Both the position numbers and the translations under genes were made by a program. The notes beneath the pieces are model-generated. The model did no database searches. It was not told where the DNA came from and saw only the letters and a program-made list of their open reading frames with translations. From a virus: a stretch of 64,000 nucleotides of DNA. This document shows positions 200-39,079 of the stretch, in pieces (position 1 is the stretch's first letter; each line of letters opens with the position of its first letter). The stretch lies in the IMG/VR virus record IMGVR_UViG_3300018868_001080; one strand, written 5' to 3'.

Positions 200-931
200 T
201 CAGACGTAACTAGTAATTAATTTTCTATTGGCTATTAGTGATGATCCGGATGGCCCGGATTCAGGTTTATCATAATCTATATTGAGGATTGAATCACTCC
301 ACTTCTTCCATGTAGTACTAATATCAGATCTGGGGTCACCATTGAATAGATCCCAGTGTGGGTATTTTTCTTCAGCTAAAGTTTTTACAATAACAAAGTG
401 GTCATAACCATTGTATTTTTGCAGCCAATGTGGTGTGGAGCTATGACCACCAGGCACATTGAGAGGCGATTTCCAGGTGGTATCATAAGTGCTCTCCTGG
501 CTCTCATAAAGGGCTAAATCTGCTTCATACAATCTCCACACCCAATCACGATCTTCCCAACCACCATGAATGAACCTCTCGTCCCACCAGCCTATTTTTC
601 TGATTAATTCTTTTGCAAACCCCATGAACCCAACATTATAAAGCAGCACACACGACATGCCATTCTCAAGTAAATGCAGCATTTTTTCCACTTCTTCTGG
701 TTTCGGATAAGTGCGATCGTTAATTAATATTACCCATTCCGTTGGTGAAGTAACAATAGCGTGGTTTATGAGCTGAGAGTATGAGGGGTACATTTTAGGA
801 TACCTATCGATTCTATTGTTCCAGTGTACTTTGTATTTTGCCTCTAACGGCTTTAATGCCTCTATTTGTTTATTTGTTATATCTCTACTGCAACCACAGT
901 GCAAGCTAATTGTAAATTCGTCAATTTTCAT
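200..931 (-). CDS. GT-A fold (GT2-like) glycosyltransferase
   Basis: WVILINDR and KIGWWDERFIHGGWEDRDW, the GT2 C-terminal G-x-x-D-E-x-F...EDxD signature. Confidence 0.7.
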   Translation of the reverse strand: MKIDEFTISLHCGCSRDITNKQIEALKPLEAKYKVHWNNRIDRYPKMYPSYSQLINHAIVTSPTEWVILINDRTYPKPEEVEKMLHLLENGMSCVLLYNVGFMGFAKELIRKIGWWDERFIHGGWEDRDWVWRLYEADLALYESQESTYDTTWKSPLNVPGGHSSTPHWLQKYNGYDHFVIVKTLAEEKYPHWDLFNGDPRSDISTTWKKWSDSILNIDYDKPESGPSGSSLIANRKLITSYV

Positions 932-1344
932 ATAAAATCAGTGCATATGCCGTAACAATTATAGTTTAACTGTTTCCAATCATTTTGCAAGTGCACAATA
1001 ATGCTTTTTTCATTCACTGCTTTGCCTGGATATGTCCAAATATAACCATTGGAAGTTAATGTCCGTTCATCAGATTCATGCCAGAAGCAAGCAACATTTT
1101 TATTTAAAAGAAATATTAATGCATCTAAATTTTTTGCATGCCACCAAATGCTCTTAAGCTCAAAAAAGGAGCCATCAACAGCATGATCAGGCGCATCGTG
1201 ACCAAGAAACAAACCCCCATGAGTTGCATGGACATCAACCTCGCAATCATAACCCATGTTCAATACTTTTTTTATTTGTTCCGGGGTATTTTCCAATGTT
1301 AAGTTCGAGCCGCTTGTATTGCCTCTGTGTGAAATTAGCTTCAT
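928..1344 (-). CDS. small glycerophosphodiester phosphodiesterase (GDPD)-fold protein
   Basis: N-terminal ISHRGN, ExD in CEVDV, LGHD, C-terminal GICTDF. Confidence 0.75.
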   Translation of the reverse strand: MKLISHRGNTSGSNLTLENTPEQIKKVLNMGYDCEVDVHATHGGLFLGHDAPDHAVDGSFFELKSIWWHAKNLDALIFLLNKNVACFWHESDERTLTSNGYIWTYPGKAVNEKSIIVHLQNDWKQLNYNCYGICTDFI

Positions 1345-1347
1345 CTG

Positions 1348-2544
1348 TTATGCAGAAACTATGCCCCACTTTTCAATGGCTTGGTTATATTCCTTGCCAT
1401 GTTCCTTATCAATAGCTTGCCGCATAGCCAAGGCACCAGATCGGGAGCCACCTGGATGGCCGTGCACTGCACCACCTACATTTGCCATAAAATCATTACC
1501 CACCCTGCCAATACAGAAATCAACTAGACCGGGATGCATTCCGCAACTAAGAGCTGGCACAGTATTGCCTTCTCTTAAAATTTTTAATGCTTGCATCAAT
1601 TCAATTTCATCATCATTGCTATAACCACCAACCATACCTGCTTGTATTGTATCAGCACCCATGAGAGTTGCTAACTGACAAACAACAGGCCAAGCAATAG
1701 AGAATCTATGACTTCTATCTGTAAATACTCTGTCGCCGCTTTTTTGAAAATGTAAGAATACTGGTAAATCTAACTTACGAATGCTATTATAAACCCCCAG
1801 ACCGCTCCATACATTTATGTGTACTCCGTTGCCGCCCAGTTCGCTTACTTTGCGTACCCTATCTAAAACAACATGTGGATCTCCATTAATTGTGTGGCAA
1901 AAAGCTATTTTTTTCTTTTGTGTTGAAAGATAGTTAGCTATAACTTCTACCCTTTCCTCCAACCGGCAACATGCAGGGTTACTCATTATTTCATCTTCTT
2001 TAATAAAATCAACACCACCCTCAACAACTTGTTTAACCATTTCAAGCAAAACTTTTGAAGTGATACCAGTTTTGGGTTTAATAATAGCACCAAAAAGCGG
2101 TTTGTTAAATTGATTGGTTAATTTCCTCAATCCTGTGATGCCAAATTTTGGGCCCAAGAAATGCTGCTTAACACATTCTGGTATTAGCAAATCAATTAAT
2201 CTGCAGCTAGTGATCAGATCGATATCTACATGACCTCCCATGAGCTGGCACAATAAATGGCTAATACCATCGTTATCCCAGTCACTATTGATAACAGGAA
2301 ATCCTATCTCTACCATACCAGCCTTTTGTTCCTCTAATTTCTTTTCATCCGCAAATATAATACAGCTGTGATTTTCAAACAAGCTGTCTGTCTCCCATTC
2401 ATTTCTTACATTAGGATTACCAACACTTTGACCTATGGCTAGGTTCCAAGCTGCTGCTTTGAGAGATTGGTTGCTTGACATTCTATATGTGGCAACAACA
2501 TATTTGTTGATGTCTACCTCTTCCTTGTTACGGAAAATTTTCAT
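1348..2544 (-). CDS. RuBisCO-like protein (form IV type), probably not a carboxylase
   Basis: GPKFGITGLR, GAIIKPKTG, GGVDFIKEDE (carbamate-Lys/Mg motif), LSCGMHPG, NVGGAVHGHPGG. Confidence 0.93.
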   Translation of the reverse strand: MKIFRNKEEVDINKYVVATYRMSSNQSLKAAAWNLAIGQSVGNPNVRNEWETDSLFENHSCIIFADEKKLEEQKAGMVEIGFPVINSDWDNDGISHLLCQLMGGHVDIDLITSCRLIDLLIPECVKQHFLGPKFGITGLRKLTNQFNKPLFGAIIKPKTGITSKVLLEMVKQVVEGGVDFIKEDEIMSNPACCRLEERVEVIANYLSTQKKKIAFCHTINGDPHVVLDRVRKVSELGGNGVHINVWSGLGVYNSIRKLDLPVFLHFQKSGDRVFTDRSHRFSIAWPVVCQLATLMGADTIQAGMVGGYSNDDEIELMQALKILREGNTVPALSCGMHPGLVDFCIGRVGNDFMANVGGAVHGHPGGSRSGALAMRQAIDKEHGKEYNQAIEKWGIVSA

Positions 2545-2854
2545 ATTTATCTCCTGTCACAGAAGGTGTTTTTACAACTATAAGTTCGCAATCTTCAAAA
2601 AAAGTGGGATCTGCTATTTCATTTGGTTCAATAACAAAAACATCTCCTTGTTGTAAAATTTTTTCTTGTATCATCATTTTACCTTTGATTAGATAGTTAA
2701 TCTCCGTCGCAACTTTATGCAAGTGCTTTGGCCAGCATTCACCTTTCTGATGCTGCTTATAGCAGACTTCAAATTCTTTTGTCTTGAGAACAGAAGGGCT
2801 AAAATCACCGATAAACCACCCACCTTTAAAAGTATTAATGTTATAGATTTTCAT
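2528..2854 (-). CDS. cupin-domain protein
   Basis: HLHKVATEINYLIKG and GDVFVIEP match cupin motifs 1 and 2; N-terminal GWFIGDF. Confidence 0.8.
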   Translation of the reverse strand: MKIYNINTFKGGWFIGDFSPSVLKTKEFEVCYKQHQKGECWPKHLHKVATEINYLIKGKMMIQEKILQQGDVFVIEPNEIADPTFFEDCELIVVKTPSVTGDKYENFP

Positions 2855-3569
2855 ATATTTGTTCTGTAAAATAATTTAAATCGTCTGGCACACCAATGGG
2901 GTAATGGAGATTATAGTAATAAGGTATAATTTTCTTACCATCTCTTATCATGTAATTGTATGAAGGTGCAACATAAAATTCATTACCATATCTTTCATCT
3001 TTTTTTATCATTTCGTTTGCTGAATAAACAAAATCAGAACCCTTGGACCAAAAGTGCAGACCATTTGTTGCAATATTACTGATTACAATTTTTTCTTTTA
3101 TTTCCTGAATTCTTAAATCTTCACTAAGCTTTATGTAGCTATTTTTATTGGAATTAGAATGAAAGGCACCAACAATGCCATCTGCTTGATTAAATTTAGC
3201 AAAATTAAGTAAATTTTTAATATTAAAATCAACAATAATCTGGTCACAATTTACTATAATAAGCTGTTGACTGTTGTTGATATATTTTTCAGCTAGTAAG
3301 CATGTGCACGCGGGTCCTTCAGTAAGAGCCTCAGCAACTATGAGCTCATAATTAATGTCTAGTGAATCAAGAATGTCTTTGAAGCTTTTATCTGTACTGA
3401 GTTGTGATGAGATAATTAAAAAAAATTTAGTTTGTTTATCTTGTGATAGGTTATCAATGATGCGAGTTACCATCGGCTTGCCTTTCACATCAATCAGGGG
3501 CTTGAGCTCACCCGGGTGAGTTTTGCTAAATCGAGAGCCCACCCCAGCCATGGGTATAACCATATTCAT
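2841..3569 (-). CDS. sugar-phosphate nucleotidyltransferase
   Basis: VIPMAGVGSRF, KPLIDVKGKPM, NCDQ, KEK and EFYVAP motifs of the NTP-transferase superfamily. Confidence 0.88.
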   Translation of the reverse strand: MNMVIPMAGVGSRFSKTHPGELKPLIDVKGKPMVTRIIDNLSQDKQTKFFLIISSQLSTDKSFKDILDSLDINYELIVAEALTEGPACTCLLAEKYINNSQQLIIVNCDQIIVDFNIKNLLNFAKFNQADGIVGAFHSNSNKNSYIKLSEDLRIQEIKEKIVISNIATNGLHFWSKGSDFVYSANEMIKKDERYGNEFYVAPSYNYMIRDGKKIIPYYYNLHYPIGVPDDLNYFTEQIYENL

Positions 3570-3573: not shown

Positions 3574-4236
3574 TCAACAACCGATTATGCCGTCTGCACG
3601 TACAATATAAAATGTCTTATGAATTATATTAACATTAATATTGTTTGCATTTAAATGTGCACCTAGTATACCCTCTGGACATGGTTGTTTTATACGCTCG
3701 GTGCCTTCATTATCGTTGTAAACTTTTGCATATGTGTCCATAGTATTCGAATTACCGTATGCAAACCAATCATTTATACCACCGCAGCCACCTGGGCGGT
3801 CCATAAGATATACCTGCTTCTCTGCACAGTTGTGTAGATTTATTTTTTCGCTATAAAGCAAATCCCATCTTACTCTTACTACAACATCATACTTAAAATT
3901 ATTAACCCGCTCGTATTCTTTCTTAAGATCATTACTTCTTGTAATAGACCTGAGCATGCTCTTTGTATTTTCAGAAAAGGTGGGGTAATCAAAACAGAAA
4001 GAGATTGGCTTTAGAAAATTAACTACGTCAGTTATATCATAATCTGTATACTTGCCATAGGGTGTTGTGTCATGGTCGTTGAAATCATTCTTATAAGCAC
4101 TATCGTCATGCTTATGCCAGCAATGGCAAAACACATCACAATTGTAAGGATCGATTAGATGGTCTTTTAAGCTTTGGCGTACATAATTAAAGCTACGTAT
4201 TTGACCTGATAAACAAACAGCTACTTTCATTTCCAT
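3574..4236 (-). CDS. putative glycosyltransferase-like protein
   Basis: VAVCLSGQIRSF, YDVVVRVRWD, NDWFAYG, PEGIL; a family pattern recalled from viral glycan islands, plus gene context. Confidence 0.55.
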   Translation of the reverse strand: MEMKVAVCLSGQIRSFNYVRQSLKDHLIDPYNCDVFCHCWHKHDDSAYKNDFNDHDTTPYGKYTDYDITDVVNFLKPISFCFDYPTFSENTKSMLRSITRSNDLKKEYERVNNFKYDVVVRVRWDLLYSEKINLHNCAEKQVYLMDRPGGCGGINDWFAYGNSNTMDTYAKVYNDNEGTERIKQPCPEGILGAHLNANNINVNIIHKTFYIVRADGIIGC

Positions 4237-4241: not shown

Positions 4242-5063
4242 TTATTTGATGGGGTAGCGCCTATTGTATTCCTCGAATAACCAAGGCTGGCCACCTGCAA
4301 AATGTCTGTAGATTATATTATTTGGATCGGCATGCACAATATCATATGTGTTGGGCTTTGTTGGTGTGAACGTTTTATCGCCTGTCTCGTCCAATAGATG
4401 TGTAACGTTCCATTCTGTTGGCAGTATATCAACATTCTCAAGCAATTCGTCCAGCGACAGAACAGTTTTTTCAGTTACTTCAGAATGCAGACCGTTGTTA
4501 GGTAGATCATAGAAAGGCGTCCAGCTATGAGGTTTTATGCCAGCATGCACATAGTATGCCTGCTGATCACCATGATAAAAGGTTCTCTTTTCATTAAAAT
4601 GTTCGTTCCAAATTTTAAAATCTTTGTTTTCATAGAATTTCTCTCTTGAAGTAATCAGATTGATTAGCTTGCGGGTGAATGGCGAGATTTTGAGAATAAA
4701 GAATCCAAAGCAATGTGTGTTGCCTGAATCAATTGCATAGGTGAAACTTTTCTTGGGCTCATAAAACTTATCGAGCTGAGCAATAAAAACGTCTGCATCA
4801 TATTGATATATAACATCACCATCCACAAGCTTGCCTGAGTCAACTAAATCTTTGAAAAGATACCACCTGTTGAAATGAAAATTATCACCAGGGTGAAGCT
4901 CTGGGAAGTAGATTTGTGGAGTAAAATTGGTTTGATTGATCTCAATATACTTTAACCCGTGCATCTCACAATATTTTCTATTGCGCGGCTCAATATACTT
5001 TCTGAATAAGTTTTCGCGTTCACCGTGCCATATAGCAAAATTTAAGAAATATTTCTTCATCAT
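4242..5063 (-). CDS. putative GT-A glycosyltransferase (GT34/GT8-like)
   Basis: YDADVFI (DxD), GDQQAY, LPTEWNV, RHFAGG. Confidence 0.65.
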   Translation of the reverse strand: MMKKYFLNFAIWHGERENLFRKYIEPRNRKYCEMHGLKYIEINQTNFTPQIYFPELHPGDNFHFNRWYLFKDLVDSGKLVDGDVIYQYDADVFIAQLDKFYEPKKSFTYAIDSGNTHCFGFFILKISPFTRKLINLITSREKFYENKDFKIWNEHFNEKRTFYHGDQQAYYVHAGIKPHSWTPFYDLPNNGLHSEVTEKTVLSLDELLENVDILPTEWNVTHLLDETGDKTFTPTKPNTYDIVHADPNNIIYRHFAGGQPWLFEEYNRRYPIK

Positions 5064-5066
5064 TCT

Positions 5067-5094
5067 AATATATACTATTAATTAGCTTTTGCAA
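5067..5094 (-). promoter_or_regulatory. sigma70-like promoter TTGCAA-N16-TATATT
   Basis: The -10 box ends 3 and 6 nt before the tandem ATGs at 5063 and 5060. Confidence 0.55.
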
Positions 5095-5903
5095 GTACTT
5101 GCGGCATCGAGAATTAATTTTTTATAATAATTGAAGTCTGATTTGTATGTTTCTTTTTTACTCACCTCAGCATACTTGGTCATGAGCAGCTCCGGTGTTA
5201 AATCTTCCCATGAGTTAATAAAAAGAATTGGGCAATCTTTAAAATAAACCACTGGTATATCTTTTAAAACAATGGGCACTGTTCCTACATACATTGACTC
5301 CCAGATTCTATGACAGTCAACACTGTTTCCTGGTGGTGAAATAACATACTTGTATGTGCTTAGTTTGCGCAAATAGTCTTCAAAGCTATGCTTATGAAAA
5401 TCGAAATCGATAAAATCGTAATGTTTGATCTTCTGTATTGCATGAGACCTCTCATTGGGATTTGTGTTGGGATCAAAGTTACAGTAAACAAGATTCTTTT
5501 TACTATTGTTCTCATTAATTATTTTTAATATTGTTTCTTTGTTACCGTGAGGCCAAACTTCATTTGCCATACCTATGGGTATGGTTTGTAATTTATTGTG
5601 CATAACATGGCAATTCATGCCAAACCATTTGACGAGATGCGGGTTGTTGAGAATCGATAGATGTTCTGTTGTGACTGGTGCATCTGCATCATGCGTAATC
5701 AAGACAAACGGGTAATTAATGTTGGGTAAATTTTCTCTTGCAAATAGAGAAATGTTATCACCATGAAGAAAAATAATATTTTCGTCAGGGTTGTATGTAA
5801 TTTTCTTACCATATCTAGATATGTAGTTGCTTGCAAGGCTCAACAACTTATCTGGTGTAATTATAAAATCTGTATTATTCACTTTTCTTAATAAACTCTT
5901 CAA
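5082..5903 (-). CDS. exostosin-like (GT47-type) glycosyltransferase
   Basis: YKYVISPPGNSVDCHRIWESMYVGTVPIV. Confidence 0.75.
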   Translation of the reverse strand: MKSLLRKVNNTDFIITPDKLLSLASNYISRYGKKITYNPDENIIFLHGDNISLFARENLPNINYPFVLITHDADAPVTTEHLSILNNPHLVKWFGMNCHVMHNKLQTIPIGMANEVWPHGNKETILKIINENNSKKNLVYCNFDPNTNPNERSHAIQKIKHYDFIDFDFHKHSFEDYLRKLSTYKYVISPPGNSVDCHRIWESMYVGTVPIVLKDIPVVYFKDCPILFINSWEDLTPELLMTKYAEVSKKETYKSDFNYYKKLILDAASTCKS

Positions 5904-6792
5904 TGCATTTCTTATTATGCATGTGTAGGTTGAAGATAGGAATCTTCTTATCCTTATAAATCACATAGGGTTTCTTATCAAATCCTACTGAGATGCTTTT
6001 CTCGATGAGCTCCTTGCCAACATAGTGACGGTATTCCACATAGCCTGGTGGATGGTTTTGATTAGTACCACCGAGAAACATGCCATAGGGATTAGGATCA
6101 AAAAGCATCTGCATTTCGTTAAAATTTTCAGAAAACGGTCCTGATGGCACACATGGTAGCATTTTATAATTTTTTCCGTATTTGTAGATTAAGTCGAGCA
6201 AGGCCATGTCTGTAATCCAGCTATAAAAATGCCCAACATGACTGCGTAGAGCTTCCTCACCTTTCTTGATGAGCTTCACATGAAGGTCCAGAAGTGTCTG
6301 TGCTGCTGCACTATCTTTTACAAAGATACAGCATGGTGCAGAAGCGGACGGCGCTTCATTGCAAAATCCAAACTCACCTGGTTTAAAAAATTTGCTTATG
6401 TTTGAAATATCATCAAATATAAGATTGTCACCTTCCAGATGCAGAGTATCTTTGAGGTCTCTTTTGATGATAAAAATGAGAAATAGGAATACACGAATTG
6501 TTGTGTTGAACCAGAATGCATCAGTCATATACCTGGGCCATTTTGTTTTAAATATATGAATAATTTCTTTATACTCCTCTGTCTGAAGCAGTGGTTCCAC
6601 ATCCACAGAATTTTCGTGCTTGTATTTTTCTTGTAAAATAATATATGCATTATCTGCATGTTTTTTATTAAAAGCAAGTGTCTGTTTGTAGTAATCAGGC
6701 AGAGAGGCAGGTGCGTAGATATTTTCCTCACTACTAGGAATACTGGTGGGTAGAAATGTTCTGTCTAGAAAGAACGAAACCAAATTACTCAT
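5875..6792 (-). CDS. putative glycosyltransferase
   Basis: LHLEGDNLIF, TDMALL, LFDP, FNLHMH; lies within the GT operon. Confidence 0.5.
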   Translation of the reverse strand: MSNLVSFFLDRTFLPTSIPSSEENIYAPASLPDYYKQTLAFNKKHADNAYIILQEKYKHENSVDVEPLLQTEEYKEIIHIFKTKWPRYMTDAFWFNTTIRVFLFLIFIIKRDLKDTLHLEGDNLIFDDISNISKFFKPGEFGFCNEAPSASAPCCIFVKDSAAAQTLLDLHVKLIKKGEEALRSHVGHFYSWITDMALLDLIYKYGKNYKMLPCVPSGPFSENFNEMQMLFDPNPYGMFLGGTNQNHPPGYVEYRHYVGKELIEKSISVGFDKKPYVIYKDKKIPIFNLHMHNKKCIEEFIKKSE

Positions 6793-7588
6793 ATTTTTTA
6801 GTAAAAAATGCCTTGGTCAGATCTTTTTTGTCATATTGATGCACAATGGCAAAAGGTTGTTGACCTGGCTTGGTAAGCAGATTGTTGCATATCCATTTTT
6901 CACTCAAATCATTTTTCTCATCAGCTGCAGACAGGTGTATTAAGAATTCATCTCCATGCGGGAGAATCTCTAGCTGCAGACTCTTCCTCACATATGTTAA
7001 GAGATTTAAAATAACTTGATCGTATGCAAAATAATTTCTTTGTGGTAGAATGATGCTCAGCTCTGTTGCAACTTGCTTTTGATAATCAATTAGCTTGTCA
7101 ATATTACCAATGGTAACGCCACAATTCAAAATCTTCTTGTCCTTTACCCCATCGTAACTCTCACTGTACCCGAACTTGTACCAAGTTGTGTTGGTGTCAC
7201 AGTCTCTAAAATAGTTTCGTTCTTCTGCAAGCACAGTGCTGTTTGCAGGGAATTTTTTTGCATATTCAACAAAGGGGTCTTTTTGAAAAATGACATCCAC
7301 ATCTGTCATCAAAGCTGTCTGACAATTCGTTTGTGCTTTGATCTCTTTCAAGAGAAGATAAAATACAATGGGTTTTAAATTGTACGGTGTGAGGCTTCTA
7401 ATATTATGTTTTTCGGCAAATTTATAGTAATTTATTATTTGTATCTTCTTTTGATCAATTGGCAGGCTCGAGCAATCCAGATCAGTTACAAGGAATAAAA
7501 CACCATCCACATTGTCATTAAAGCTCTTGAGAAATGGTTTCAAGTAGTTGTAGTTAAACCCCAGAGATAGTGCAATAGTACAATTCAT
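6785..7588 (-). CDS. GT-A fold glycosyltransferase
   Basis: TDVDVIFQKDPF, LNCGVTIG, DQVILN, VHQYDK. Confidence 0.75.
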   Translation of the reverse strand: MNCTIALSLGFNYNYLKPFLKSFNDNVDGVLFLVTDLDCSSLPIDQKKIQIINYYKFAEKHNIRSLTPYNLKPIVFYLLLKEIKAQTNCQTALMTDVDVIFQKDPFVEYAKKFPANSTVLAEERNYFRDCDTNTTWYKFGYSESYDGVKDKKILNCGVTIGNIDKLIDYQKQVATELSIILPQRNYFAYDQVILNLLTYVRKSLQLEILPHGDEFLIHLSAADEKNDLSEKWICNNLLTKPGQQPFAIVHQYDKKDLTKAFFTKKYE

Positions 7589-8448
7589 TGTGTTAGTTTA
7601 AAGTAGTGTTGCTCTAATTCAACTTCATTTTCAAAAGGTTGGTACCACCTGCAATTGTTTACTGTGGGTCGCTTCTCCAGAACATTGAACACATAATTCC
7701 ACCAAATACGATTGACAATAGGGTCGCGTCTAAATACATCTTCAGTATAATAATTTTCAACAAATGCTTTGTCACTGGAACAACCATCATGATTTATATG
7801 AAAGGAAACAAAAGGTAATTTGTTTAGATTCTTGCATTTACACAAGCAATTGAGCATGGTGAAGAAATATGTATCCCAATAATTGTGACCAAGTATGAAC
7901 TGTTTAAGAGATTTTGTTACACGCTTCCATGTGCTGTTTTTAATTGCAAAAGCATCAAACCCGTGCACTGAGTATGCATCTGCAACAGGTGTATCGTCAA
8001 GTGATTTAATATTGCTAATGCAGGCTTTGCTTGAGGGATAACACTCATACTCTGCAGTAATGTGCTTGATGAACCTATCAGAAATTATTATGTCACTGTT
8101 TGTGAATAAGAAATAGTCACTATCAATATCTGACATGACATCAAATATTTCATTTACAATTGGTAATTCTCTCTTGTTGTTGTTGATATCATTTTCTCTC
8201 AAACTATACTCTTGTGATAGATGGGCTTGTTTAAAATACTCCTTTACAACTGCATTTGACTTCTTTTTTAATTTGTTGATGGTAATGAATCCATCATAAA
8301 CTAATTGATCTTCTTGAAACGTTATTATATACAGTTCAACGTTTTTAAATTTTTGCTTTAATTTTTGCAAGCTCTCAATGCACAGCATTTCACGATGATT
8401 CAATCTATCGTAAGGCTTGAAAGCATTTATACCAATTGCAATTTTCAT
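7585..8448 (-). CDS. putative GT-A glycosyltransferase
   Basis: YFLFTNSDII, GFDAFAI, LGHNYWD. Confidence 0.6.
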   Translation of the reverse strand: MKIAIGINAFKPYDRLNHREMLCIESLQKLKQKFKNVELYIITFQEDQLVYDGFITINKLKKKSNAVVKEYFKQAHLSQEYSLRENDINNNKRELPIVNEIFDVMSDIDSDYFLFTNSDIIISDRFIKHITAEYECYPSSKACISNIKSLDDTPVADAYSVHGFDAFAIKNSTWKRVTKSLKQFILGHNYWDTYFFTMLNCLCKCKNLNKLPFVSFHINHDGCSSDKAFVENYYTEDVFRRDPIVNRIWWNYVFNVLEKRPTVNNCRWYQPFENEVELEQHYFKLTQ

Positions 8449-9227
8449 GGTTTAATTTGCTTCAAAAAGCTAACAACCTCTTGCTTTGTTTTGATGGGTA
8501 TTTGATTCACCATGACACCGTGTTTTTTAACAAAATATTCCCACTCTTTATGAATTTTTAGAGTACGAGAGCCATCAGGATTATCTGGGGCATCAATGCG
8601 GCTGCTCGTCTCTGGGTTATTCATAATGTAATTATCTGAATTTGTTAAATCTGCAAACCACCAGAACGGCGCTGCATAATCTCCACGCACAGACTCTCTA
8701 TATGTGAGGTCAACATCCCATGCAAACCTATATCCAGTGTCATATAAGCCAGTCTTGCTGTAGCACGAAGCATGATGATATGTGAACTCGTTGCACATGT
8801 TTGGATAAAATGAAATGCTTGTATCTTTGCTATATTCTACAGTTAGTTTTGGTGTTCGTTTTTCTGGTGCACCAGATTCCCAGGATGTACTCACAAATGA
8901 AAAGTACTTCAAGTTGCTTGCTTTGGATGCCTCAATATATTTGTAGAATATATTCTTGTCTTTGATGATCATGTCATCTTCAATTATAAAAATATGATCA
9001 CATTTTTTTTCCAAAAGAAAATTAATACAATCATTTCTGCATACACTTGGATACCTATTTTTGTGATGCTGTATCCAATCAGAATCATATTTTTTAGAAT
9101 ATTCTTTCCCACCATTAACTGTCACAAGTTCATCAATTGTATCACGTGGTAGAGAATTGTACAATGCATCATAATAATGCTCAGTATTATATGTGGTGAT
9201 ACCTACTCCAATTTTCTGTGTGTTCAT
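8445..9227 (-). CDS. GT2-family glycosyltransferase
   Basis: GVGITTYN, DHIFIIEDD, GLYDTGY; paralogue of 9224..9988. Confidence 0.8.
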   Translation of the reverse strand: MNTQKIGVGITTYNTEHYYDALYNSLPRDTIDELVTVNGGKEYSKKYDSDWIQHHKNRYPSVCRNDCINFLLEKKCDHIFIIEDDMIIKDKNIFYKYIEASKASNLKYFSFVSTSWESGAPEKRTPKLTVEYSKDTSISFYPNMCNEFTYHHASCYSKTGLYDTGYRFAWDVDLTYRESVRGDYAAPFWWFADLTNSDNYIMNNPETSSRIDAPDNPDGSRTLKIHKEWEYFVKKHGVMVNQIPIKTKQEVVSFLKQIKP

Positions 9228-9988
9228 AATGATTTAAAATATTCAATAACCTTATCCAAGCCATCATATGGCTGACCAGGGTCTGTAACATCAATATTAT
9301 ATTTTTGTTTGAATCTATCCACACCATTTCTAAAATTCTTCATCCAATCACCTTTCCTTATGGTAGATTTATCATGATGGTAGTCTTGATCAACAATGTA
9401 TTGGTTGCTGTTCTCTAGGTCAATGAACCAACGGAACGGTGGGTGGTATCCATGCCTTATAGCATTCATGGTATGATCCACATGCTCCATGGCATTGACA
9501 TATTGCTCATCCATCAATCCTATTTGGTCAAAGACTGATTTGTGGTAATAACTGCATGCTCCATACACATTAAAATACAGAGCCACTCTTTGTCCTCGTA
9601 TTTCAAAGATTTTGCGGGGGATTGGCACATTGTTCTGTTTGTTATCTTGACCATGTAAGCAGTAGTTAAAATGCTTCACTCTGGTCTTTTTGCTTGCTGC
9701 AACATATGCAGCAAATGCATTGTCAAGAAAAACAACATCATCCTCCACAAGAAAAATGTGATCGCAACCTTTTGCCAAGAGAAATTCTATGGCTTTGTTC
9801 TTTGACTTGCCAACACCTAGATTCACTTCATTATTAATAATATGCATACCTGGTTGCATAATTTTATCAAATCCATCATTAACAACAACTAATTCATCAT
9901 ACCAATCTGGCTTGAGACTTTTGATGCATTCTCTAAGAAATGATGGCCGATCACAAGTGATAACACCTATCCCAGTTTTTTCTTTCAT
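9224..9988 (-). CDS. GT2-family glycosyltransferase
   Basis: VVVNDG, NLGVGKSKN, HIFLVEDD, IGLMDE. Confidence 0.85.
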   Translation of the reverse strand: MKEKTGIGVITCDRPSFLRECIKSLKPDWYDELVVVNDGFDKIMQPGMHIINNEVNLGVGKSKNKAIEFLLAKGCDHIFLVEDDVVFLDNAFAAYVAASKKTRVKHFNYCLHGQDNKQNNVPIPRKIFEIRGQRVALYFNVYGACSYYHKSVFDQIGLMDEQYVNAMEHVDHTMNAIRHGYHPPFRWFIDLENSNQYIVDQDYHHDKSTIRKGDWMKNFRNGVDRFKQKYNIDVTDPGQPYDGLDKVIEYFKSL

Positions 9989-9995: not shown

Positions 9996-10023
9996 ATTGT
10001 ATATTAAATAATAGAGATGTCAA
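9996..10023 (-). promoter_or_regulatory. sigma70-like promoter TTGACA-N16-TACAAT for the GT operon
   Basis: Perfect -35 box; the -10 box ends 7 nt before ATG 9988. Confidence 0.75.
10005..10010 (+). promoter_or_regulatory. T4-type late promoter core TAAATA
   Basis: 6 nt before ATG 10017. Confidence 0.6.
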
Positions 10024-12524: not shown

Positions 12525-13973
12525 ATGTGCGGTTTTCTAGTAACAAACAAGCCAGTGTCAGATGCAGAATTGGACCATGCAAATTTTTATATCAAATTCA
12601 GGGGGCCTGATCATACCGAGAAAACAAAAATAGAAAATATTAGCTTCATACACAACCTGCTCAGTCTCACAGGAGAATTTAGACCCCAGCCAATTTTTAA
12701 AGATAATATAGCTGTGGTCTATAACGGTGAAATTTATAATTTTAAGGAATTAGATAAAGATGCAAAATCAGACGGTGATGTAATTATTCCACTGTACAAA
12801 GAATATGGTGCCAATTTTCTTGATAAACTTGATGGTGAGTTCTCCATAGTGCTTATTGATTTTAATACAAACAAAGCAATATTAGCTGTTGACACCTTTG
12901 AAACAAAACCTCTGTATGTTGCACACAAGGGCCCATACTTTGGTGCTGCATCTCTGAGAAGCGGTTTAGTAAGGCTGGGATTCAAACATATAAGAGAATT
13001 GAGATGCAATACAGGTATAATATATAATATAAAGTCACTAGCAGTTGAGGACATATTTGAAATACATAAGTTTGATGTTGAAAATGAGCACAAGAAAACC
13101 TTTGATGATTGGCATAATGCCTTTGAAGCAGCAGTTTTGAAGCGGCTAAAATATGTGGATCTTAAGAAAACTGGAGTTGGTCTGCACTTAAGTGAGGGTC
13201 ATGACAGTGGCTCTATTGCAGCGTGCCTTAAAAAATACAACCTTTCGGATGATATCTTAATACATTCTTTCATAACACAGGATATGCATCCTGAAGTCTT
13301 GAGGTGGAGACATGGGCTTGATCAGGATACTTTGCCAAAGAATGGCAGTGGAGAAATTTTTAAATCTCCAAATTTTAAACGATCCATACTTGATAGTATA
13401 AGAGAGGAGGATTTTGTTTTGAGCAATATTTTATATAAGAAAAGAGTTGAGGATTTTGATTATTTTACAATGACACCCGAAGCAAAGCTGGAAGTAAGAA
13501 ATTCCTACTATCATTTCACAAGAAATATGTACCATCTTATATACAGAGCTAGATTGAAACATAGTTGCAGAATAGGGCTGGGTGGTTATGGTGGTGATGG
13601 TGTGTCAAGTGCGTGGGTAAATAAAATTTATAAGAAATATGGAAGCATATGGCCTATTATTAATTTCAGGGATAACTCGATGTATCTATCAGATATAATA
13701 GCAGGTTCTCTGGGAGTTGAAGTAAGAAACCCTTACATGGATAAAGCATTATGGCAGGAGTCTTTCTGGATGGATAAATCTGTCTATAGAAATGAAAACA
13801 ATAATCATAAACCACCATTGCATGACTATCTTGAGAAAGAGAAATTTCCATTTTATAAGAGAGATAAAAACAACGATATAGAGTTCTTCTGGATTGGATT
13901 CGGTAATTTTCTGAACTTTAACTCAGTACATAAAGACCCTATTTATGTACCGCAACCTGATATTACACTTTAA
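12525..13973 (+). CDS. asparagine synthetase B-like amidotransferase
   Basis: Ntn N-terminus MCG, RGPD, YNGEIYN, LSEGHDS (PP-loop), GYGGD, EVRNPY; TAAATA at 12511-12516. Confidence 0.8.
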   Translation: MCGFLVTNKPVSDAELDHANFYIKFRGPDHTEKTKIENISFIHNLLSLTGEFRPQPIFKDNIAVVYNGEIYNFKELDKDAKSDGDVIIPLYKEYGANFLDKLDGEFSIVLIDFNTNKAILAVDTFETKPLYVAHKGPYFGAASLRSGLVRLGFKHIRELRCNTGIIYNIKSLAVEDIFEIHKFDVENEHKKTFDDWHNAFEAAVLKRLKYVDLKKTGVGLHLSEGHDSGSIAACLKKYNLSDDILIHSFITQDMHPEVLRWRHGLDQDTLPKNGSGEIFKSPNFKRSILDSIREEDFVLSNILYKKRVEDFDYFTMTPEAKLEVRNSYYHFTRNMYHLIYRARLKHSCRIGLGGYGGDGVSSAWVNKIYKKYGSIWPIINFRDNSMYLSDIIAGSLGVEVRNPYMDKALWQESFWMDKSVYRNENNNHKPPLHDYLEKEKFPFYKRDKNNDIEFFWIGFGNFLNFNSVHKDPIYVPQPDITL

Positions 13974-14715
13974 GTGCTTTGTCCCAAATTACAAGCTGCA
14001 GACGCGGGCTAAAATTGAACATGTGCTTCTTGCAAAGATCGGCTACCATGGCCGCCTTTTCTGCTAATTCTGCCCTGCTGCCACAACAAGGCATCAACCA
14101 TACACGATTCTTTGGCACATTAACGTCAGGGTTGTTTATATACTTCTCCAGGATTTCCTGCACATCAGATTCACCGCTAACAACAAACTTGAACCCTGAC
14201 CCATTCTCTGCATGCCACTTTAAAACAGCGGGCTTGTATCTCTTTTCAACAGCATCCCCATTATTAGACAGTTTTGGTGATGTTGTGAACGTTGCCCTAT
14301 ATTCTGTTAGCCAGGCTTCATCCGGCAGAATGGTTGCATTGGTTTCAAAATCAATAACCGGCGTGTATCCAAATCGGTCTGCATACGAGCGCACTAATTT
14401 GAGCAATTGCTTCTGTTGAATGAGTGGTTCACCGCCAGTGATCTTCCATATGGCACCCTCGCGCAACTTGCACTCATATCCCTCTTGCAACAACAGATCC
14501 AATATGCTGTCCAAAGTCAACTTGTTCTTTACAGACCAGCTCACAAAGCTGTCACAACCATGTGGTGCAGCTGCAGAAGCAAATCCTTTGCATGTGAGGT
14601 TGCACATAGAAAGGCGCATGAACACAGAAGGCATGCCGGCATATTCACCTTCACCTTCAATGGTGTAAAAAATCTTATCATCACTAAGAAATAGTGTATC
14701 AATTGCATCAGTCAT
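13963..14715 (-). CDS. queE: 7-carboxy-7-deazaguanine synthase (radical SAM)
   Basis: FYTIEGEG, FMRLSMCNLTC...CDS, ITGGEPL, ETN, SPKL, FSPRLQ. Confidence 0.88.
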   Translation of the reverse strand: MTDAIDTLFLSDDKIFYTIEGEGEYAGMPSVFMRLSMCNLTCKGFASAAAPHGCDSFVSWSVKNKLTLDSILDLLLQEGYECKLREGAIWKITGGEPLIQQKQLLKLVRSYADRFGYTPVIDFETNATILPDEAWLTEYRATFTTSPKLSNNGDAVEKRYKPAVLKWHAENGSGFKFVVSGESDVQEILEKYINNPDVNVPKNRVWLMPCCGSRAELAEKAAMVADLCKKHMFNFSPRLQLVIWDKALKV

Positions 14716-15761: not shown

Positions 15762-16400
15762 TCAAGTGCCCCAAGAGGTTCCTGCATAAGGATTGCTTAT
15801 GCCGCGTGTCACTTTGTTGGTGAGCGGTGCACCAGACTCAATGTTCAGACCTGCATTCACTGCAGTTACATTCTGTAGTGCAGGTGGTATGGTAGTTGTA
15901 ACAGTTACTGCAGCTGCATTGCCTGAAGCTATACTGGTAGCGGTATGTGCAGTTTGTGTGGCTGTGGCAATTGCAATTGCAGAATTCTTCTCATGTTCCC
16001 ACACTTCCACCTGTTTAACCCAGCAACGACCATTGGTAAGATGTCTCACATGTCGATCAGCTGTCTCCAAGCACCATTCTGCAGTACGCTCGATGCCTAC
16101 TCCATTTTCCATGATGCGTGGTAATGCTGCACCTGCATGACCCAATGCAATGAATGTATCAAGTAGAGGATCATCACCTGCAATGCATAATGTATGATCA
16201 AATTGATGTTCTAATGCTTGCTTCAATTCCTTGAGACCACCAAAATCTACAACCCAATTTCTTGCATCTAAGTGTTCACACTCAAACCAAAATTTTGCCA
16301 CCAATCGGTAACCATGCACATATTTGCAATGACTGTCTGCTCTCCATTGTCTGAATGCGCAACTTCCCAGCTCTATAATCTTTGTACTTTCATGTTTCAT
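15762..16400 (-). CDS. queD: 6-carboxy-5,6,7,8-tetrahydropterin synthase with low-complexity C-terminal extension
   Basis: HCKYVHGY, WVVDFGGLK, FDH, VEVWEHEKNSA. Confidence 0.88.
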   Translation of the reverse strand: MKHESTKIIELGSCAFRQWRADSHCKYVHGYRLVAKFWFECEHLDARNWVVDFGGLKELKQALEHQFDHTLCIAGDDPLLDTFIALGHAGAALPRIMENGVGIERTAEWCLETADRHVRHLTNGRCWVKQVEVWEHEKNSAIAIATATQTAHTATSIASGNAAAVTVTTTIPPALQNVTAVNAGLNIESGAPLTNKVTRGISNPYAGTSWGT

Positions 16401-17965: not shown

Positions 17966-18613
17966 ATGTCTACAAAAGTATTAATTCCATACGCAAATCA
18001 TAACCACCCTCGATCTGAACAAGAGAAGCAGGAGATCATTGCACATGCTGCAAAAGCTTATGAAGCATATCTGGATGCATTGTGCATTGATTGGCGCAAT
18101 GATCCCAACAGTTCCAACACACCACACCGAGTGGCCAAAGCCTTTGTGGAAGATCTGGCCAGTGGTTGTTACAGTACCCCGCCCAAGGTGACTGCGTTTG
18201 CAAATGTGGACCAGTATGATGGCATTGTGTGTCAGAACAACATCAGAGTAACCTCACTTTGCTCTCATCACCATGCAGCGTTCACTGGTGTGGCACATGT
18301 GGCATACATACCTGCACGTGATGGCAAGGTCATTGGATTGAGCAAGCTTAATCGCATTGTGGACTGGTTTTCACGCAGACCACAGGTGCAAGAAAATCTC
18401 ACCATGCAAATTCATACACATATTGATGAAGCTTGTGTGAAGAACAATGGTGTAGCAGTCATGATTGAAGCCAAGCATTCATGTTGTTCCAACCGCGGCA
18501 TCAAGCATGATTCTACTATGCGCACTGCGCGCATGTCTGGTGCATTCCTGGACAATGGCGACAACTCTCGTTCAGAGTTTTACAAGTTCATTGAATTTGC
18601 ACAAGTGCATTAA
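17966..18613 (+). CDS. folE: GTP cyclohydrolase I
   Basis: TPHRVAK, SLCSHH, VIGLSKLNR, RPQVQENLT, HSCCSNRG. Confidence 0.95.
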   Translation: MSTKVLIPYANHNHPRSEQEKQEIIAHAAKAYEAYLDALCIDWRNDPNSSNTPHRVAKAFVEDLASGCYSTPPKVTAFANVDQYDGIVCQNNIRVTSLCSHHHAAFTGVAHVAYIPARDGKVIGLSKLNRIVDWFSRRPQVQENLTMQIHTHIDEACVKNNGVAVMIEAKHSCCSNRGIKHDSTMRTARMSGAFLDNGDNSRSEFYKFIEFAQVH

Positions 18614-19339: not shown

Positions 19340-22075
19340 TTATCCATATGCAGCTGCTGCAGGGCCACTCCTGGCTGTACCCACTCCTGCCACATCATTG
19401 CCCACCACTCCAGTGTTAGTAACCAGGTTAGTCATGGAAACACCGGATCCTACGGATCCATAGCCAAAGATGGCTTTGTCAGTACCATATGCAGCTGCTG
19501 CAAGGGCGAATCTAGGTGTGCCTACCCCTGTCACATCATTGCCCACCACTCCAGTGTTAGTAACCAGGTTAGTCATGGAAACATTACCGCCTGTACCTCC
19601 CCCATAACCAAAAATGGCTTTGTCAGTACCATATGCAGCTGCTGCAAGGGCGGTCCTAGCTGTGCCCACCCCAGTCACATCATTGCCCACCACTCCAGTG
19701 TTGGTAACCAGGTTAGTCATGGAAACATGGGAAGCTACATATCCATAACCAAAGATGGCTTTGTCTGTACCATATGCAGCTGCTGCAAGGCCACTCCTGG
19801 CTGTACCCACTCCTGCCACATCATTGCCCACCACTCCAGTGTTAGTAACCAGGTTAGTCATGGAAACATTACCGCCTGTACCTCCCCCATAACCAAAGAT
19901 GGCTTTGTCTGTACCATATGCAGCTGCTGCAAGGTCACTCCTGGCTGTACCCACTCCTGCCACATCATTGCCCACCACTCCAGTGTTGGTGACCAGGTTA
20001 GTCATGGAAACATTACCGCCTGTACCCCCATAACCAAAGATGGCTTTGTCTGTACCATATGCAGCTGCTGCAAGGGCATACCTAACTGTACCCACCCCAG
20101 TCACATCATTGCCCACCACTCCAGTGTTGGTGACCAGGTTAGTCGTGGAGACCAAAACACCCCCAGCTGCAAATCCATAACCAAAAATGGCTTTGTCAGA
20201 AGTAGTAGGTGTTATTACATCACCATACCTGGTTGCAAATGTTGCATAGAATGTTCTAATTGCCCCTACGTTGCAGTACAGTGGTCCACTGGTGTAAGAC
20301 CACACACCACCAGTGGTTCTCTTGAGAACATGAAAGGAGTTATCAAAATTAGGACTGCCTTCATATGTGCTCACAAACAGTCCCAAGGAATTGTCTGCAA
20401 AGACATCCAGCTTGGCTGATTGGATGCTACTGGCTTCAGAGGGATTGAAGGCAATTCCACCCAAACCTGATCCCTGACATGATGCAACAACTGTGTTGGA
20501 TATGATGGTGTTGGTAGTAAAATTATATTCTATGAGCGCTATGGCTGCACGTGGAAGAGACACTGTTTTCTTGACGTATATGATGTAGGCTATGTTGCTG
20601 TCTGTTTTGCTGAAGTCCAGCCCAACAATGGGTGATCTGCCATCAAGATTGTCTCCACCGCCAATGCCGGGATCAATCCTGTAGTCAGTGGCCACACTGG
20701 CGTCTGTGTATATGGCCACATTATCAAAGTAGAGTGTACCAGCTGAAGTGACACCAGCAGTGTGAAAGACACCCAAGTAATCGCAATTGTAATCATAATT
20801 ATACACAATGCCGGGGCTGCCATCAAAAATCAAAGCATTGTCCGGATATGAATGTATGGTGTTACTGCTTCCGCTGGCTCCGCCCCCGGGGTAAGCTAAC
20901 TTATAACCTGATGCATTTGTCTTGTCTTGCACCGCAATCAATGCAGCACCATTTGCACGGAAATCGCGCGCCACAGCGCTTATTTGCGTTGGTGTGGACC
21001 ATGTGAGACCTCTGTCAGTTGAAGAAGAAGTAAACAGAGGTTTGGTATTTGAGGTGCCGGTATCGAAATAGAAATAATAATATGTGTTGTCAGCAGCTAT
21101 GAAGAGATGGTCAGTGCCTGGAAAGAATGAGACTGGTGGTGCAAGATTGGCTGGTGTGGAGACTATATCCCATGATGTGCCGTTCCATCTTCTGACAGAT
21201 CTGAAGAGACCAGGGTCTCTGGCATTTGTAACCATTGCAACCAAACTATTATTTGCACCACTCTCATAAGCCATGACCATTTGTGTCCTGCTATTTCCTG
21301 CAAAGGGAATTGTCGTGATTTTGCTCAGTGTCACCAGATTGTTGGTATATTCTCTTATTTCAAAAGGAGGTTTGCCTGTATCCAAAGCGGTTCCCTGAGC
21401 CAGAAAGGACATTTTCTGTACAATAACAGAAACAGGATTTGTGGGTGTGGGTGTCACAGTGGGTGTCACAGTGGGTGTCACAGTGATTGTGGGCGTCACA
21501 GTGGGTGTCACAGTGATTGTGGGCGTCACTGTGGGTGTCACAGTGGGTGTCACAGTGGGCGTCTCAGTGATTGTGGGCGTCACAGTGGGTGTCACAGTGC
21601 ATGTGGGTGTCAGAGATATGGTGGGTGTAATTGTAATGGTTGGTGTGACTGTGTTGGTAGGCGTCACTGTGGGTGTCTCAGTGGGTGTCACAGTGCATGT
21701 GGGTGTAATTGTAATGGTTGGTGTCACAGTAGGTGTCACTGTGGATGTAACGGTGATGGTAGGCGTCACAGTAGGTGTTGCAGTGCGTGTGGGTGTAATG
21801 GTGGGTGTTGCAGTGCGTGTGGGTGTAATGGTGGGTGTTGCAGTGCGTGTGGGTGTAATGGTGGGTGTCACAGTAGGTGTAGCGGTTGGGGTGGGTGTAA
21901 CTATTGTAGGCGTTACTGTGATTGTAGGTGTTGGTGTTATTGGTACAATCACATAGTTGGTATCTGTTTTTGTAACATTAACAATTGATGCTAAATTCTT
22001 TTTCACATACTCTACACCATTTATAGTGACATAATTGTAACCAGACAATGCTGCTATATTTGGTAGTACTATCAT
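19340..22075 (-). CDS. 911-aa putative virion surface/adhesin protein: Thr/Pro stalk, Asp-box domain, six-repeat C-terminal domain
   Basis: TPT repeats; STDRGLTW Asp-box; six 47-49-aa repeats DKAIFGYG...AAAAYG. Confidence 0.7.
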   Translation of the reverse strand: MIVLPNIAALSGYNYVTINGVEYVKKNLASIVNVTKTDTNYVIVPITPTPTITVTPTIVTPTPTATPTVTPTITPTRTATPTITPTRTATPTITPTRTATPTVTPTITVTSTVTPTVTPTITITPTCTVTPTETPTVTPTNTVTPTITITPTISLTPTCTVTPTVTPTITETPTVTPTVTPTVTPTITVTPTVTPTITVTPTVTPTVTPTPTNPVSVIVQKMSFLAQGTALDTGKPPFEIREYTNNLVTLSKITTIPFAGNSRTQMVMAYESGANNSLVAMVTNARDPGLFRSVRRWNGTSWDIVSTPANLAPPVSFFPGTDHLFIAADNTYYYFYFDTGTSNTKPLFTSSSTDRGLTWSTPTQISAVARDFRANGAALIAVQDKTNASGYKLAYPGGGASGSSNTIHSYPDNALIFDGSPGIVYNYDYNCDYLGVFHTAGVTSAGTLYFDNVAIYTDASVATDYRIDPGIGGGDNLDGRSPIVGLDFSKTDSNIAYIIYVKKTVSLPRAAIALIEYNFTTNTIISNTVVASCQGSGLGGIAFNPSEASSIQSAKLDVFADNSLGLFVSTYEGSPNFDNSFHVLKRTTGGVWSYTSGPLYCNVGAIRTFYATFATRYGDVITPTTSDKAIFGYGFAAGGVLVSTTNLVTNTGVVGNDVTGVGTVRYALAAAAYGTDKAIFGYGGTGGNVSMTNLVTNTGVVGNDVAGVGTARSDLAAAAYGTDKAIFGYGGGTGGNVSMTNLVTNTGVVGNDVAGVGTARSGLAAAAYGTDKAIFGYGYVASHVSMTNLVTNTGVVGNDVTGVGTARTALAAAAYGTDKAIFGYGGGTGGNVSMTNLVTNTGVVGNDVTGVGTPRFALAAAAYGTDKAIFGYGSVGSGVSMTNLVTNTGVVGNDVAGVGTARSGPAAAAYG
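19343..20200 (-). repeat. six coding tandem repeats of about 141-147 bp
   Basis: ccatatgcagctgctgca recurs at 19344, 19485, 19629, 19770, 19914 and 20055. Confidence 0.95.
21441..21940 (-). repeat. coding minisatellite (12/30-bp units) encoding TPT(V/I) repeats
   Basis: Repeated gtgggtgtcaca and gtgggtgtaatggtgggtgttgcagtgcgt units. Confidence 0.95.
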
Positions 22076-38424: not shown

Positions 38425-38428
38425 TTAA

Positions 38429-39079
38429 ATGTGTGGTATATTTGGAGCTGTGGACAGAGAGAGATTTAAATCACTGTACAACTTGAACAAGCAGAGAGGT
38501 AATTTTTCTTTTGGATGCTGCTTTTTAACACAAGATAGACGCACACAGTACTGTGAATCCGCACCTGGCGAGGTGGATGTAGAGGATTTTATGAATGAGG
38601 ACTACTATTATCTGCTAGGGCATACACAGGCCCCTACATCATCTGCTCGTGAGTATGACCGTGCCACTTCGCATCCATTCATAGCTGGTGATTGGGTTGT
38701 TGCTCACAATGGTGTGTTATCAAATTTTGAGATATTGAAACAGAAGTATGCACCAGACCACACAAACCCCGTGGATAGCAGCATCATACCGGTGCTGCTT
38801 GACTGCATGCAAGAGGAAGACGAGATTAAAACAATAACAAGCGTGCTTGAGACCATTGAAGGCACATACAGTCTGTGGCTATACAATAATATTAGCAAGA
38901 ATATCTATGTGGCAAGATGTGGCAGTACCTTGTTTGGCGATCTGCTTAGATGTGAATTCTCCTCGTACCCTGACATTGGATTAACAGAACTTGATGATAA
39001 CACCCTGTATCTTGTAACACAAGAAGGTCTTACAAAAGTCTCAGGCTTCAATGGCAACTCTCCATTTTTTATTATATGA
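38429..39079 (+). CDS. class II (Ntn) glutamine amidotransferase, Gat partner of QueC
   Basis: MCGIFG, LGHTQAPT, HPF, AHNGVL, DS. Confidence 0.85.
   Translation: MCGIFGAVDRERFKSLYNLNKQRGNFSFGCCFLTQDRRTQYCESAPGEVDVEDFMNEDYYYLLGHTQAPTSSAREYDRATSHPFIAGDWVVAHNGVLSNFEILKQKYAPDHTNPVDSSIIPVLLDCMQEEDEIKTITSVLETIEGTYSLWLYNNISKNIYVARCGSTLFGDLLRCEFSSYPDIGLTELDDNTLYLVTQEGLTKVSGFNGNSPFFII

What the first reader, a model, noticed from the sequence alone, without database searches (positions are those of the whole stretch)
928..3569. RuBisCO-like protein in a four-gene nucleotide-sugar cassette: candidate pathway to an unusual activated sugar
Seen: nucleotidyltransferase, cupin, RLP and GDPD-fold genes are overlapped or 3 nt apart, and are flanked on both sides by GT-like genes. 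Established: characterised form IV RLPs do enolisation chemistry on phosphosugars (methionine-salvage enolase/isomerase; decarboxylation or transcarboxylation in branched-sugar catabolism such as apionate and hamamelose). No methionine-salvage genes are nearby. Inference: the RLP and cupin remodel a sugar phosphate, the transferase activates it and a neighbouring GT installs it, an anabolic RLP role I do not know to be characterised. Phage-borne RLPs have been noted in metagenomes, so the novelty lies in the pathway, not the gene's presence.
Basis: partly seen in the sequence, partly recalled or inferred. Interest (0 to 1): 0.85.

Follow-up and report, generated by a model that had tools for sequence, protein, structure and literature searches.

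The report
Phage RuBisCO-like ketose-activation gene cassette
A large bacteriophage carries a relative of the CO2-fixing enzyme RuBisCO that lacks several CO2-fixing residues and sits with relatives of bacterial fructose-capsule genes, which suggests an untested job in building a sugar donor for surface glycans.

Summary
Four coupled minus-strand genes (nucleotidyltransferase, cupin, RLP, miniature GDPD) lie in the glycan island of a T4-like phage. The RLP fits the published phage/Beckwithbacteria 'IV-like' clade (Jaffe 2018; function unknown). This scan has already reported the cassette on other genomes.

Linkage is real: of 56 dereplicated RLP loci, 53 have the transferase, 43 the cupin and 43 the GDPD, and natural fusions join the RLP to each partner.

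(1) The transferase and the upstream DUF7796 gene are homologues of genes in the E. coli K4 fructose-capsule locus (30% identity; profile E 5e-39 and 8e-16).
(2) Among transferase-anchored viral loci, the RLP and a beta-PGM-like HAD never co-occur (0/12 against 31/33); a tree-corrected test was under-powered.
(3) The earliest-branching sampled relative sits in a sugar-kinase/transketolase cluster.

Best reading (about 0.5): a module that makes a nucleotide-activated ketose for a DUF7796 transferase, with the RLP as an interchangeable first step that isomerises a ketose phosphate. The cupin is dispensable. No chemistry is shown.

The parts
9996..10023 (-). Best sigma-70-type promoter match (11/12), just upstream of the first gene of the minus-strand glycan island
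   Evidence: consensus match only
3574..4236 (-). DUF7796 protein (220 aa), candidate ketosyltransferase; homologous to a domain of the KfoD-position protein of the E. coli K4-type locus
   Evidence: PF25072 E 5.5e-12; profile of alignment A5 hits the KfoD-position protein at E 8e-16, 45.8 bits against a shuffle maximum of 12.8; function inferred
2841..3569 (-). Nucleotidyltransferase of the 4evw/KfoH-like family (242 aa)
   Evidence: 30% identity, E 1e-19 to the 241-aa transferase of the K4-type locus against 2e-5 to GalF; keeps G9-x-G11-x-R13, K23, D109, E159-K160
2528..2854 (-). Small cupin (108 aa) with H44, H46, E51 but no second-motif histidine; accessory isomerase/epimerase candidate
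   Evidence: present in 43 of 56 RLP loci
1348..2544 (-). RuBisCO-like protein (398 aa), phage/CPR 'IV-like' clade
928..1344 (-). Miniature GDPD-fold phosphodiesterase (138 aa); invariant H6, R7, E35, D37, H49, H69, K71
200..931 (-). Weakly glycosyltransferase-like gene; homologues in only 8 of 92 RLP loci, so not core
4242..9988 (-). Rest of the co-oriented glycan island (eight ORFs, one with RXYLT1_C/GT47 similarity); it continues past the left window edge with two NAD epimerases and a UDP-glucose-dehydrogenase-like gene

Best explanation
The cassette, with the DUF7796 gene upstream, is a donor-building module for a glycan. SHOWN: four coupled genes, conserved linkage and fusions, and an RLP with an intact carbamate/Mg site but without the carboxylase residues. 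SHOWN: the transferase and DUF7796 have homologues in bacterial capsule and O-antigen loci, including the fructose-branched K4 type. INFERRED: the transferase makes a nucleotide-activated ketose (a fructose-, xylulose- or ribulose-type furanose) and DUF7796 installs it. INFERRED: nature feeds this core in three ways (kinase plus small phosphatase; beta-PGM-like HAD plus GDPD; RLP plus GDPD), so the RLP does what the HAD does and supplies a re-positioned ketose phosphate. MOST SPECULATIVE (about 0.3): the RLP uses enediolate chemistry to shift the carbonyl, like the Rhodospirillum rubrum 1,3-isomerase, turning a pentulose 5-phosphate into a ketose 1-phosphate. The transferase and GDPD then move the phosphate to the anomeric C2 through an NDP ester and a 1,2-cyclic phosphate, before final activation. 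The cupin is an optional isomerase/epimerase. The glycan's target (host surface or virion) is not determined.
For: Linkage in 56 dereplicated loci: transferase 53, cupin 43, GDPD 43, DUF7796/WavE-like 35, in several gene orders. Fusions: RLP-transferase-cupin P0121 and P0122, RLP-transferase P0245, GDPD-RLP P0296. The K4-type locus L114 and an ST69 capsule locus L112 carry both the transferase family (E 5e-39, 6e-43) and a DUF7796 domain (E 8e-16, 4.5e-28); kfoE is linked to fructosylation (PMC10609508) and BcbE/BcbG are needed for fructose addition (PMC13552107). The same transferase family is fused to RpiB in phage Bellamy and to RibB in S-SKS1, both pentulose-phosphate enzymes. RLP and HAD exclude each other, 0/12 against 31/33; 7 switches on the transferase tree, and a cupin-less RLP group nests inside the HAD clade. 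Seven kinase-type loci have no GDPD; most HAD and RLP loci do. The earliest-branching sampled family member lies among an FGGY kinase, split transketolase, GPI-type cupin and aldolase. Precedent for an RLP 1,3-isomerase paired with a cupin: PMC6302742.
Against: No biochemistry. The window transferase is only 26-30% identical to the Kfo-type group and lies in another subclade, so its substrate may differ. The tree-corrected test of RLP/HAD exclusion points the right way (about 3 pairs to 0.1) but is not significant (median p 0.25), and 4 of 56 RLP loci also hold a HAD. E. coli O78 and O20/O137 clusters carry the kinase-type module, although I recall no ketose in their published repeats. PMC7685785 lists xylulose only in O95/O97 and says precursor genes are absent from those clusters, which I could not inspect. 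The RLP signature (KEDE, H294Q, K334Y) differs from the DeepYkr-type reference. A single transferase would have to act twice in the cyclic-phosphate route.
Confidence: 0.5

Rival explanations
1. Branched-sugar or sugar-acid route: the RLP adds or removes CO2, or rearranges the skeleton, to give an apiose/hamamelose-type branched sugar phosphate that is then activated.
For: OiaX-type RLPs act on branched sugar acids (PMC6302742). The OiaX reference aligns Gly at N123, Gln at H327 and Tyr at K334, although the loop-6 alignment is gapped. FGGY kinase plus split transketolase (L282) recalls apiose catabolism (own knowledge). K175, K177 and the metal site are invariant.
Against: The family forms its own clade apart from OiaX (SH-aLRT 99) and scores 132 against a cut-off of 700. 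H294 is Gln in 100 of 100 sequences. A HAD could not replace a carbon-skeleton-changing enzyme if the exclusion pattern is real. No reductase is conserved next to the RLP.
Confidence: 0.15
2. The module makes an NDP-polyol, NDP-1-ketose or NDP-hydroxy-acid phosphate donor for phosphodiester-linked substituents (as with CDP-ribitol or CDP-glycerol). DUF7796 would be a phosphotransferase and the GDPD an editing or recycling hydrolase.
For: GDPDs act on polyol phosphodiesters (established knowledge; fold). An RXYLT1_C-type gene lies in the island. The transferase has a weak IspD hit and lacks the second Mg-binding Asp of RmlA/HddC (by eye).
Against: The transferase keeps the RmlA-type EK sugar-binding pair. 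Its homologues and DUF7796 sit in the K4-type locus, whose capsule has a fructose branch and no phosphodiester (own knowledge).
Confidence: 0.17
3. Enolase/phosphatase parallel to methionine salvage: the RLP enolises a 2,3-diketo 1-phosphate, the HAD is a MtnC-like alternative, and the cupin is an acireductone-type enzyme, all redirected to a glycan substituent.
For: In methionine salvage an RLP (MtnW) and a HAD (MtnC) are known alternatives upstream of the dioxygenase MtnD (PMC6302742; MtnD is a cupin, own knowledge), which would also give exclusion.
Against: The HAD scores best as beta-PGM/YqaB family. No dehydratase (MtnB-like 0/56). The cupin goes with the RLP more than with the HAD. Dephosphorylation would leave nothing for the transferase.
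Confidence: 0.07
4. Auxiliary metabolic gene for carbon fixation or methionine salvage, placed in the island by chance or co-regulation.
For: Structurally closest to form III RuBisCO; public annotations call it RbcL.
Against: E60, T65, N123, H294 and K334 are replaced across the family; below all RuBisCO and MtnW cut-offs; no MtnA in the window or loci; fused to the transferase in several lineages.
Confidence: 0.05

Closest known systems
'Form IV-like' RuBisCO-related proteins of phages and Beckwithbacteria (Jaffe et al., bioRxiv 10.1101/386292)
   Same: Myovirus-type host genome, divergent RLP, 51% identical Beckwithbacteria homologue, one clade with it.
   Different: The passages I read leave function unclear and describe no conserved partners; here the clade is tied to a transferase/GDPD/cupin/DUF7796 module.
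E. coli K4 kfoD/I/E/H and P. multocida bcbE/F/G fructose side-chain genes
   Same: Same transferase family and a DUF7796 domain; glycan-locus setting.
   Different: They use a kinase plus small HAD and have no GDPD or RLP; 30% identity; their enzymology was not found in the literature searched. The names kfoH/kfoI and the match of BcbG to the transferase are from memory.
Rhodospirillum rubrum MTRu-1-P 1,3-isomerase RLP with cupin (MTA-isoprenoid shunt)
   Same: RLP that moves a ketose carbonyl, paired with a cupin (PMC6302742).
   Different: Catabolic salvage of a thio-sugar; different active-site signature and clade; no MTA genes here.
OiaX/hamamelose-type decarboxylating RLPs and MtnW enolase
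   Same: Carbamate/Mg enolisation core on phosphosugars.
   Different: Below family cut-offs, separate clade, H294 lost, biosynthetic neighbours.
HAD-transferase-GDPD-DUF7796 modules of cyanophages S-CAM9 and B23 and of bacterial plasmids
   Same: Same transferase and GDPD core, with DUF7796 or WavE and sometimes the cupin.
   Different: HAD in place of the RLP; also uncharacterised.

Membership tests
RuBisCO superfamily | RbcL fold with carbamylated Lys and Mg ligands (K201, D203, E204) | tested here: met
   K182, D184, E185 in 100/100; TM 0.88
Bona fide RuBisCO (forms I-III) | E60, T65, N123, H294, K334 present | tested here: not met
   G38, N43, G104, Q267, Y308 in 99-100 of 100; 165 bits against cut-off 497
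Bona fide RuBisCO (forms I-III) | RuBP carboxylase activity | not testable with these tools
   needs an assay
MtnW enolase (IV-YkrW) | Family score, Lys at the N123 position, mtn neighbours | tested here: not met
   162 against 409; Gly at that site; no MtnA or MtnB-like gene
OiaX decarboxylase (IV-NonPhoto) | Family score, clade, four-carbon acid sugar kinase neighbour | tested here: not met
   132 against 700; separate clade; kinase next to the references, not in the window island
R. rubrum-type 1,3-isomerase (IV-DeepYkr) | KDDH-type signature and clade | tested here: not met
   KEDE; apart from one MtnA-linked DeepYkr-like reference on a long branch. This lowers membership, not the 'works like' claim
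Phage/Beckwithbacteria IV-like clade (Jaffe 2018) | One clade with Beckwithbacteria RLPs, on myovirus genomes | tested here: met
GDPD/PLC-like phosphodiesterase | GDPD barrel and two catalytic His with E-x-D metal ligands | tested here: met
   Z 10.3; H6, E35, D37, H49 invariant; third ligand appears to be His (by eye)
Kfo/Bcb-type ketose side-chain module | 4evw-family transferase plus DUF7796/WavE protein | tested here: met
Kfo/Bcb-type ketose side-chain module | Kinase and BcbF-type phosphatase | tested here: not met
   absent from the window and from L105
Kfo/Bcb-type ketose side-chain module | Product glycan carries a ketofuranose | not testable with these tools
   needs structural glycan analysis

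The most novel reading that the evidence does not exclude
A whole RuBisCO-superfamily clade, spread through jumbo phages, probable giant viruses and some bacteria, was recruited from sugar catabolism into glycan biosynthesis. There it relocates a ketose phosphate by carbonyl shift and, with a 138-aa phosphodiesterase, opens an undescribed route to nucleotide-activated ketoses. DUF7796 would be an unrecognised ketosyltransferase family that also explains fructose and xylulose branches in bacterial capsules.
Probability: 0.3. Interest if true: 0.88.

Novelty: new variant of a known kind. Interest (0 to 1): 0.68.

Why it matters
It would give a first function to the unexplained phage RLP clade and an anabolic, glycan-building role to the RuBisCO fold; I found none described. 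It argues against counting these genes as phage carbon-fixation genes. It also makes an open question testable: how bacteria activate and transfer fructose or xylulose to capsules and O-antigens, for which a 2019 review lists no precursor genes. The small viral enzymes (108-398 aa) are easy to express.

Tried and rejected
No whole genome is held. No cultured phage in INPHARED has this RLP; plasmid hits were other RLP types, about 30% identity or less. No RNA holder was listed, which says nothing about expression. Foldseek gave no E<=0.001 match for the mini-GDPD; VIA-align resolved it. No solved-structure match for the DUF7796 profile, so its fold is unassigned. DUF7796-versus-WavE profile comparison failed technically, so their kinship is untested. 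A blastn search of E. coli genomes with the Scandinavium transferase gene found nothing; O95/O97 clusters were not identified. Paper searches found no functional study of this RLP clade and no characterised NDP-ketose pathway; subscription journals are mostly not covered. The tree-corrected RLP-cupin association showed no signal. T4 late-promoter motif: none upstream of the island. Complex prediction was not run because no binding claim is made. Rejected: carbon fixation, methionine salvage, chance adjacency.
Full report
OBSERVATION. The four ORFs are present and intact on the minus strand, with overlaps of 14 and 17 nt and a 3-nt gap. They lie in a co-oriented island of 13 genes (9988 to 200) headed by the best sigma-70 match of the region. 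The island runs on past the window edge into two NAD epimerases and a UDP-glucose-dehydrogenase-like gene. The window is a large T4-like phage: terminase, tail sheath and DNA polymerase hit PHROGs strongly, and the longest contig encoding the RLP is 148 kb. The RLP is a RuBisCO-fold protein below all NCBIfam cut-offs. The 138-aa ORF has no Pfam hit but folds as a reduced GDPD barrel with both catalytic histidines.

THE RLP. Across 100 dereplicated family members K175, K177, K201, D203, E204, S379 and G381 are invariant, and G403/G404 nearly so. E60, T65, N123, H294 and K334 become G, N, G, Q and Y. The metal and first-phosphate site are therefore kept under selection while the carboxylase set is gone. 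Extra near-invariant residues (E51, D107, H242, N244) are candidates for new acid-base roles (inference). The family is one clade (SH-aLRT 99) with Beckwithbacteria and other bacterial members, apart from OiaX-type and DeepYkr-type references. This matches the phage 'IV-like' clade of Jaffe et al., who left its function open (10.1101/386292).

LINKAGE. In 92 RLP-anchored loci the transferase occurs in 87, the GDPD in 71 and the cupin in 60, in several orders. After adding metagenome loci and dereplicating: 53, 43 and 43 of 56, with a DUF7796/WavE-like gene in 35. Fusions join the RLP to every partner: RLP-transferase-cupin (P0121, P0122; one on a probable giant-virus contig), RLP-transferase (P0245) and GDPD-RLP (P0296, a fragment). 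Bacterial copies often sit among glycosyltransferases. The cupin is absent from a whole marine group, so it is accessory.

WHAT THE CORE DOES. The transferase belongs to the 4evw family (profile E 1.6e-35 against about 1e-10 for the next family). Following it into annotated genomes showed the same core without an RLP in cyanophages and bacterial surface-polysaccharide loci. It then led to E. coli capsule and O-antigen clusters. Locus L114 has the gene order of the K4 kfo locus (my identification from order and sizes), whose capsule is fructose-branched chondroitin. Its 241-aa transferase is 30% identical to the window's (E 1e-19; profile 5e-39), and its KfoD-position protein matches the DUF7796 profile (E 8e-16; shuffles far lower). 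An ST69 capsule locus, probably K52 (PMC13171598; its fructose branch is from memory), has both as well. Genetics ties kfoE and bcbE/bcbG to fructose addition (PMC10609508; PMC13552107). In two cyanophages the transferase is fused to RpiB or RibB, both enzymes of pentulose phosphates. From this I infer a nucleotide-activated ketose donor, with DUF7796 as the transferase that installs it.

WHAT THE RLP ADDS. Three front ends feed this core. Kinase plus BcbF-like phosphatase loci have no GDPD; HAD loci and RLP loci mostly do. In 45 dereplicated transferase-anchored viral loci, none of 12 with an RLP has the beta-PGM-like HAD, against 31 of 33 without. The two states switch 7 times on the transferase tree, and a cupin-less RLP group nests among HAD-linked transferases. 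Corrected for kinship the trend is one-sided but not significant (median p 0.25), so it is a lead and not proof. If the RLP replaces a phosphomutase or phosphatase, the simplest RLP chemistry with the same outcome is a carbonyl shift that turns a ketose 5-phosphate into a ketose 1-phosphate. The R. rubrum RLP does this in the other direction (PMC6302742). A GDPD-type attack by the neighbouring 2-OH on an NDP-1-ketose would give a 1,2-cyclic phosphate and so access to the anomeric phosphate that the kinase route makes directly. This last part is my hypothesis alone. The earliest-branching sampled relative lies among a sugar kinase, transketolase, isomerase-type cupin and aldolase, which fits a ketose-phosphate substrate but also a branched sugar.

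LIMITS. Nothing is assayed. The transferase is distant from the Kfo group and in another subclade. O78 and O20/O137 clusters hold the module without, to my memory, a published ketose, and PMC7685785 reports no precursor genes in the xylulose serogroups. The target of the glycan is unknown. Rivals are a phosphodiester-linked polyol or ketose donor (0.17), a branched sugar (0.15), an enolase/phosphatase parallel (0.07) and ordinary auxiliary metabolism (0.05).

VERDICT. The cassette is real, conserved and functionally coupled. The gene clade is published, and this scan has reported the cassette on other genomes. The link to ketose side-chain loci and the RLP/HAD exclusion were not found in earlier notes or in the papers searched. 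Novelty: new variant of a known kind. Interest 0.68. Confidence that the RLP serves glycan-donor biosynthesis is about 0.85; in the activated-ketose model about 0.5; in the exact carbonyl-shift and cyclic-phosphate route about 0.3.

Noticed in passing
window 37585-39079 (+), 13963-14715, 15762-16400, 17966-18613: QueC-like ORF (SGGMDS and FDYGQ motifs, by eye) followed by a glutamine-amidotransferase-like ORF; with QueE-, QueD- and FolE-like genes this suggests a 7-deazaguanine DNA-modification set.
   Followed up: no
L282:1-7287: Earliest-branching sampled member of this RLP clade lies in a bacterial catabolic cluster (FBP aldolase, GntR, FGGY kinase, split transketolase, GPI-type cupin, glycoside hydrolase, ABC transporter); a good entry point for finding the substrate.
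   Followed up: partly
L109:3242-9172 and L115:9894-12606: E. coli O78 and O20/O137 O-antigen clusters carry the kinase/phosphatase/transferase module (O78 also WavE); their repeats may hold an overlooked acid-labile ketose branch.
   Followed up: no
L092:6001-7428 and L095:5992-7149: Cyanophages S-SKS1 and Bellamy fuse this transferase family to RibB and RpiB respectively.
   Followed up: partly
L100:6389-8830 and L103:10001-12175: Probable giant-virus contigs (VLTF3, ankyrin genes) carry an RLP-transferase-cupin fusion and an RLP with an unassigned 330-aa C-terminal domain.
   Followed up: partly
L029:7161-7799 and homologues: A Methyltransf_24/CmcI-like methyltransferase accompanies the RLP in 19 of 56 loci, and in 5/12 RLP against 0/33 non-RLP transferase loci; absent next to the window RLP.
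   Followed up: partly
window 928-1344: At 138 aa this is a strongly reduced GDPD barrel, yet it aligns end to end with 220-250-aa GDPDs.
   Followed up: yes
window 19340-22075 (-): 911-aa protein with a long Pro/Thr repeat near its N-terminus.
   Followed up: no
P0306: A distant RLP, outside this clade, is fused to a TIR domain.
   Followed up: no
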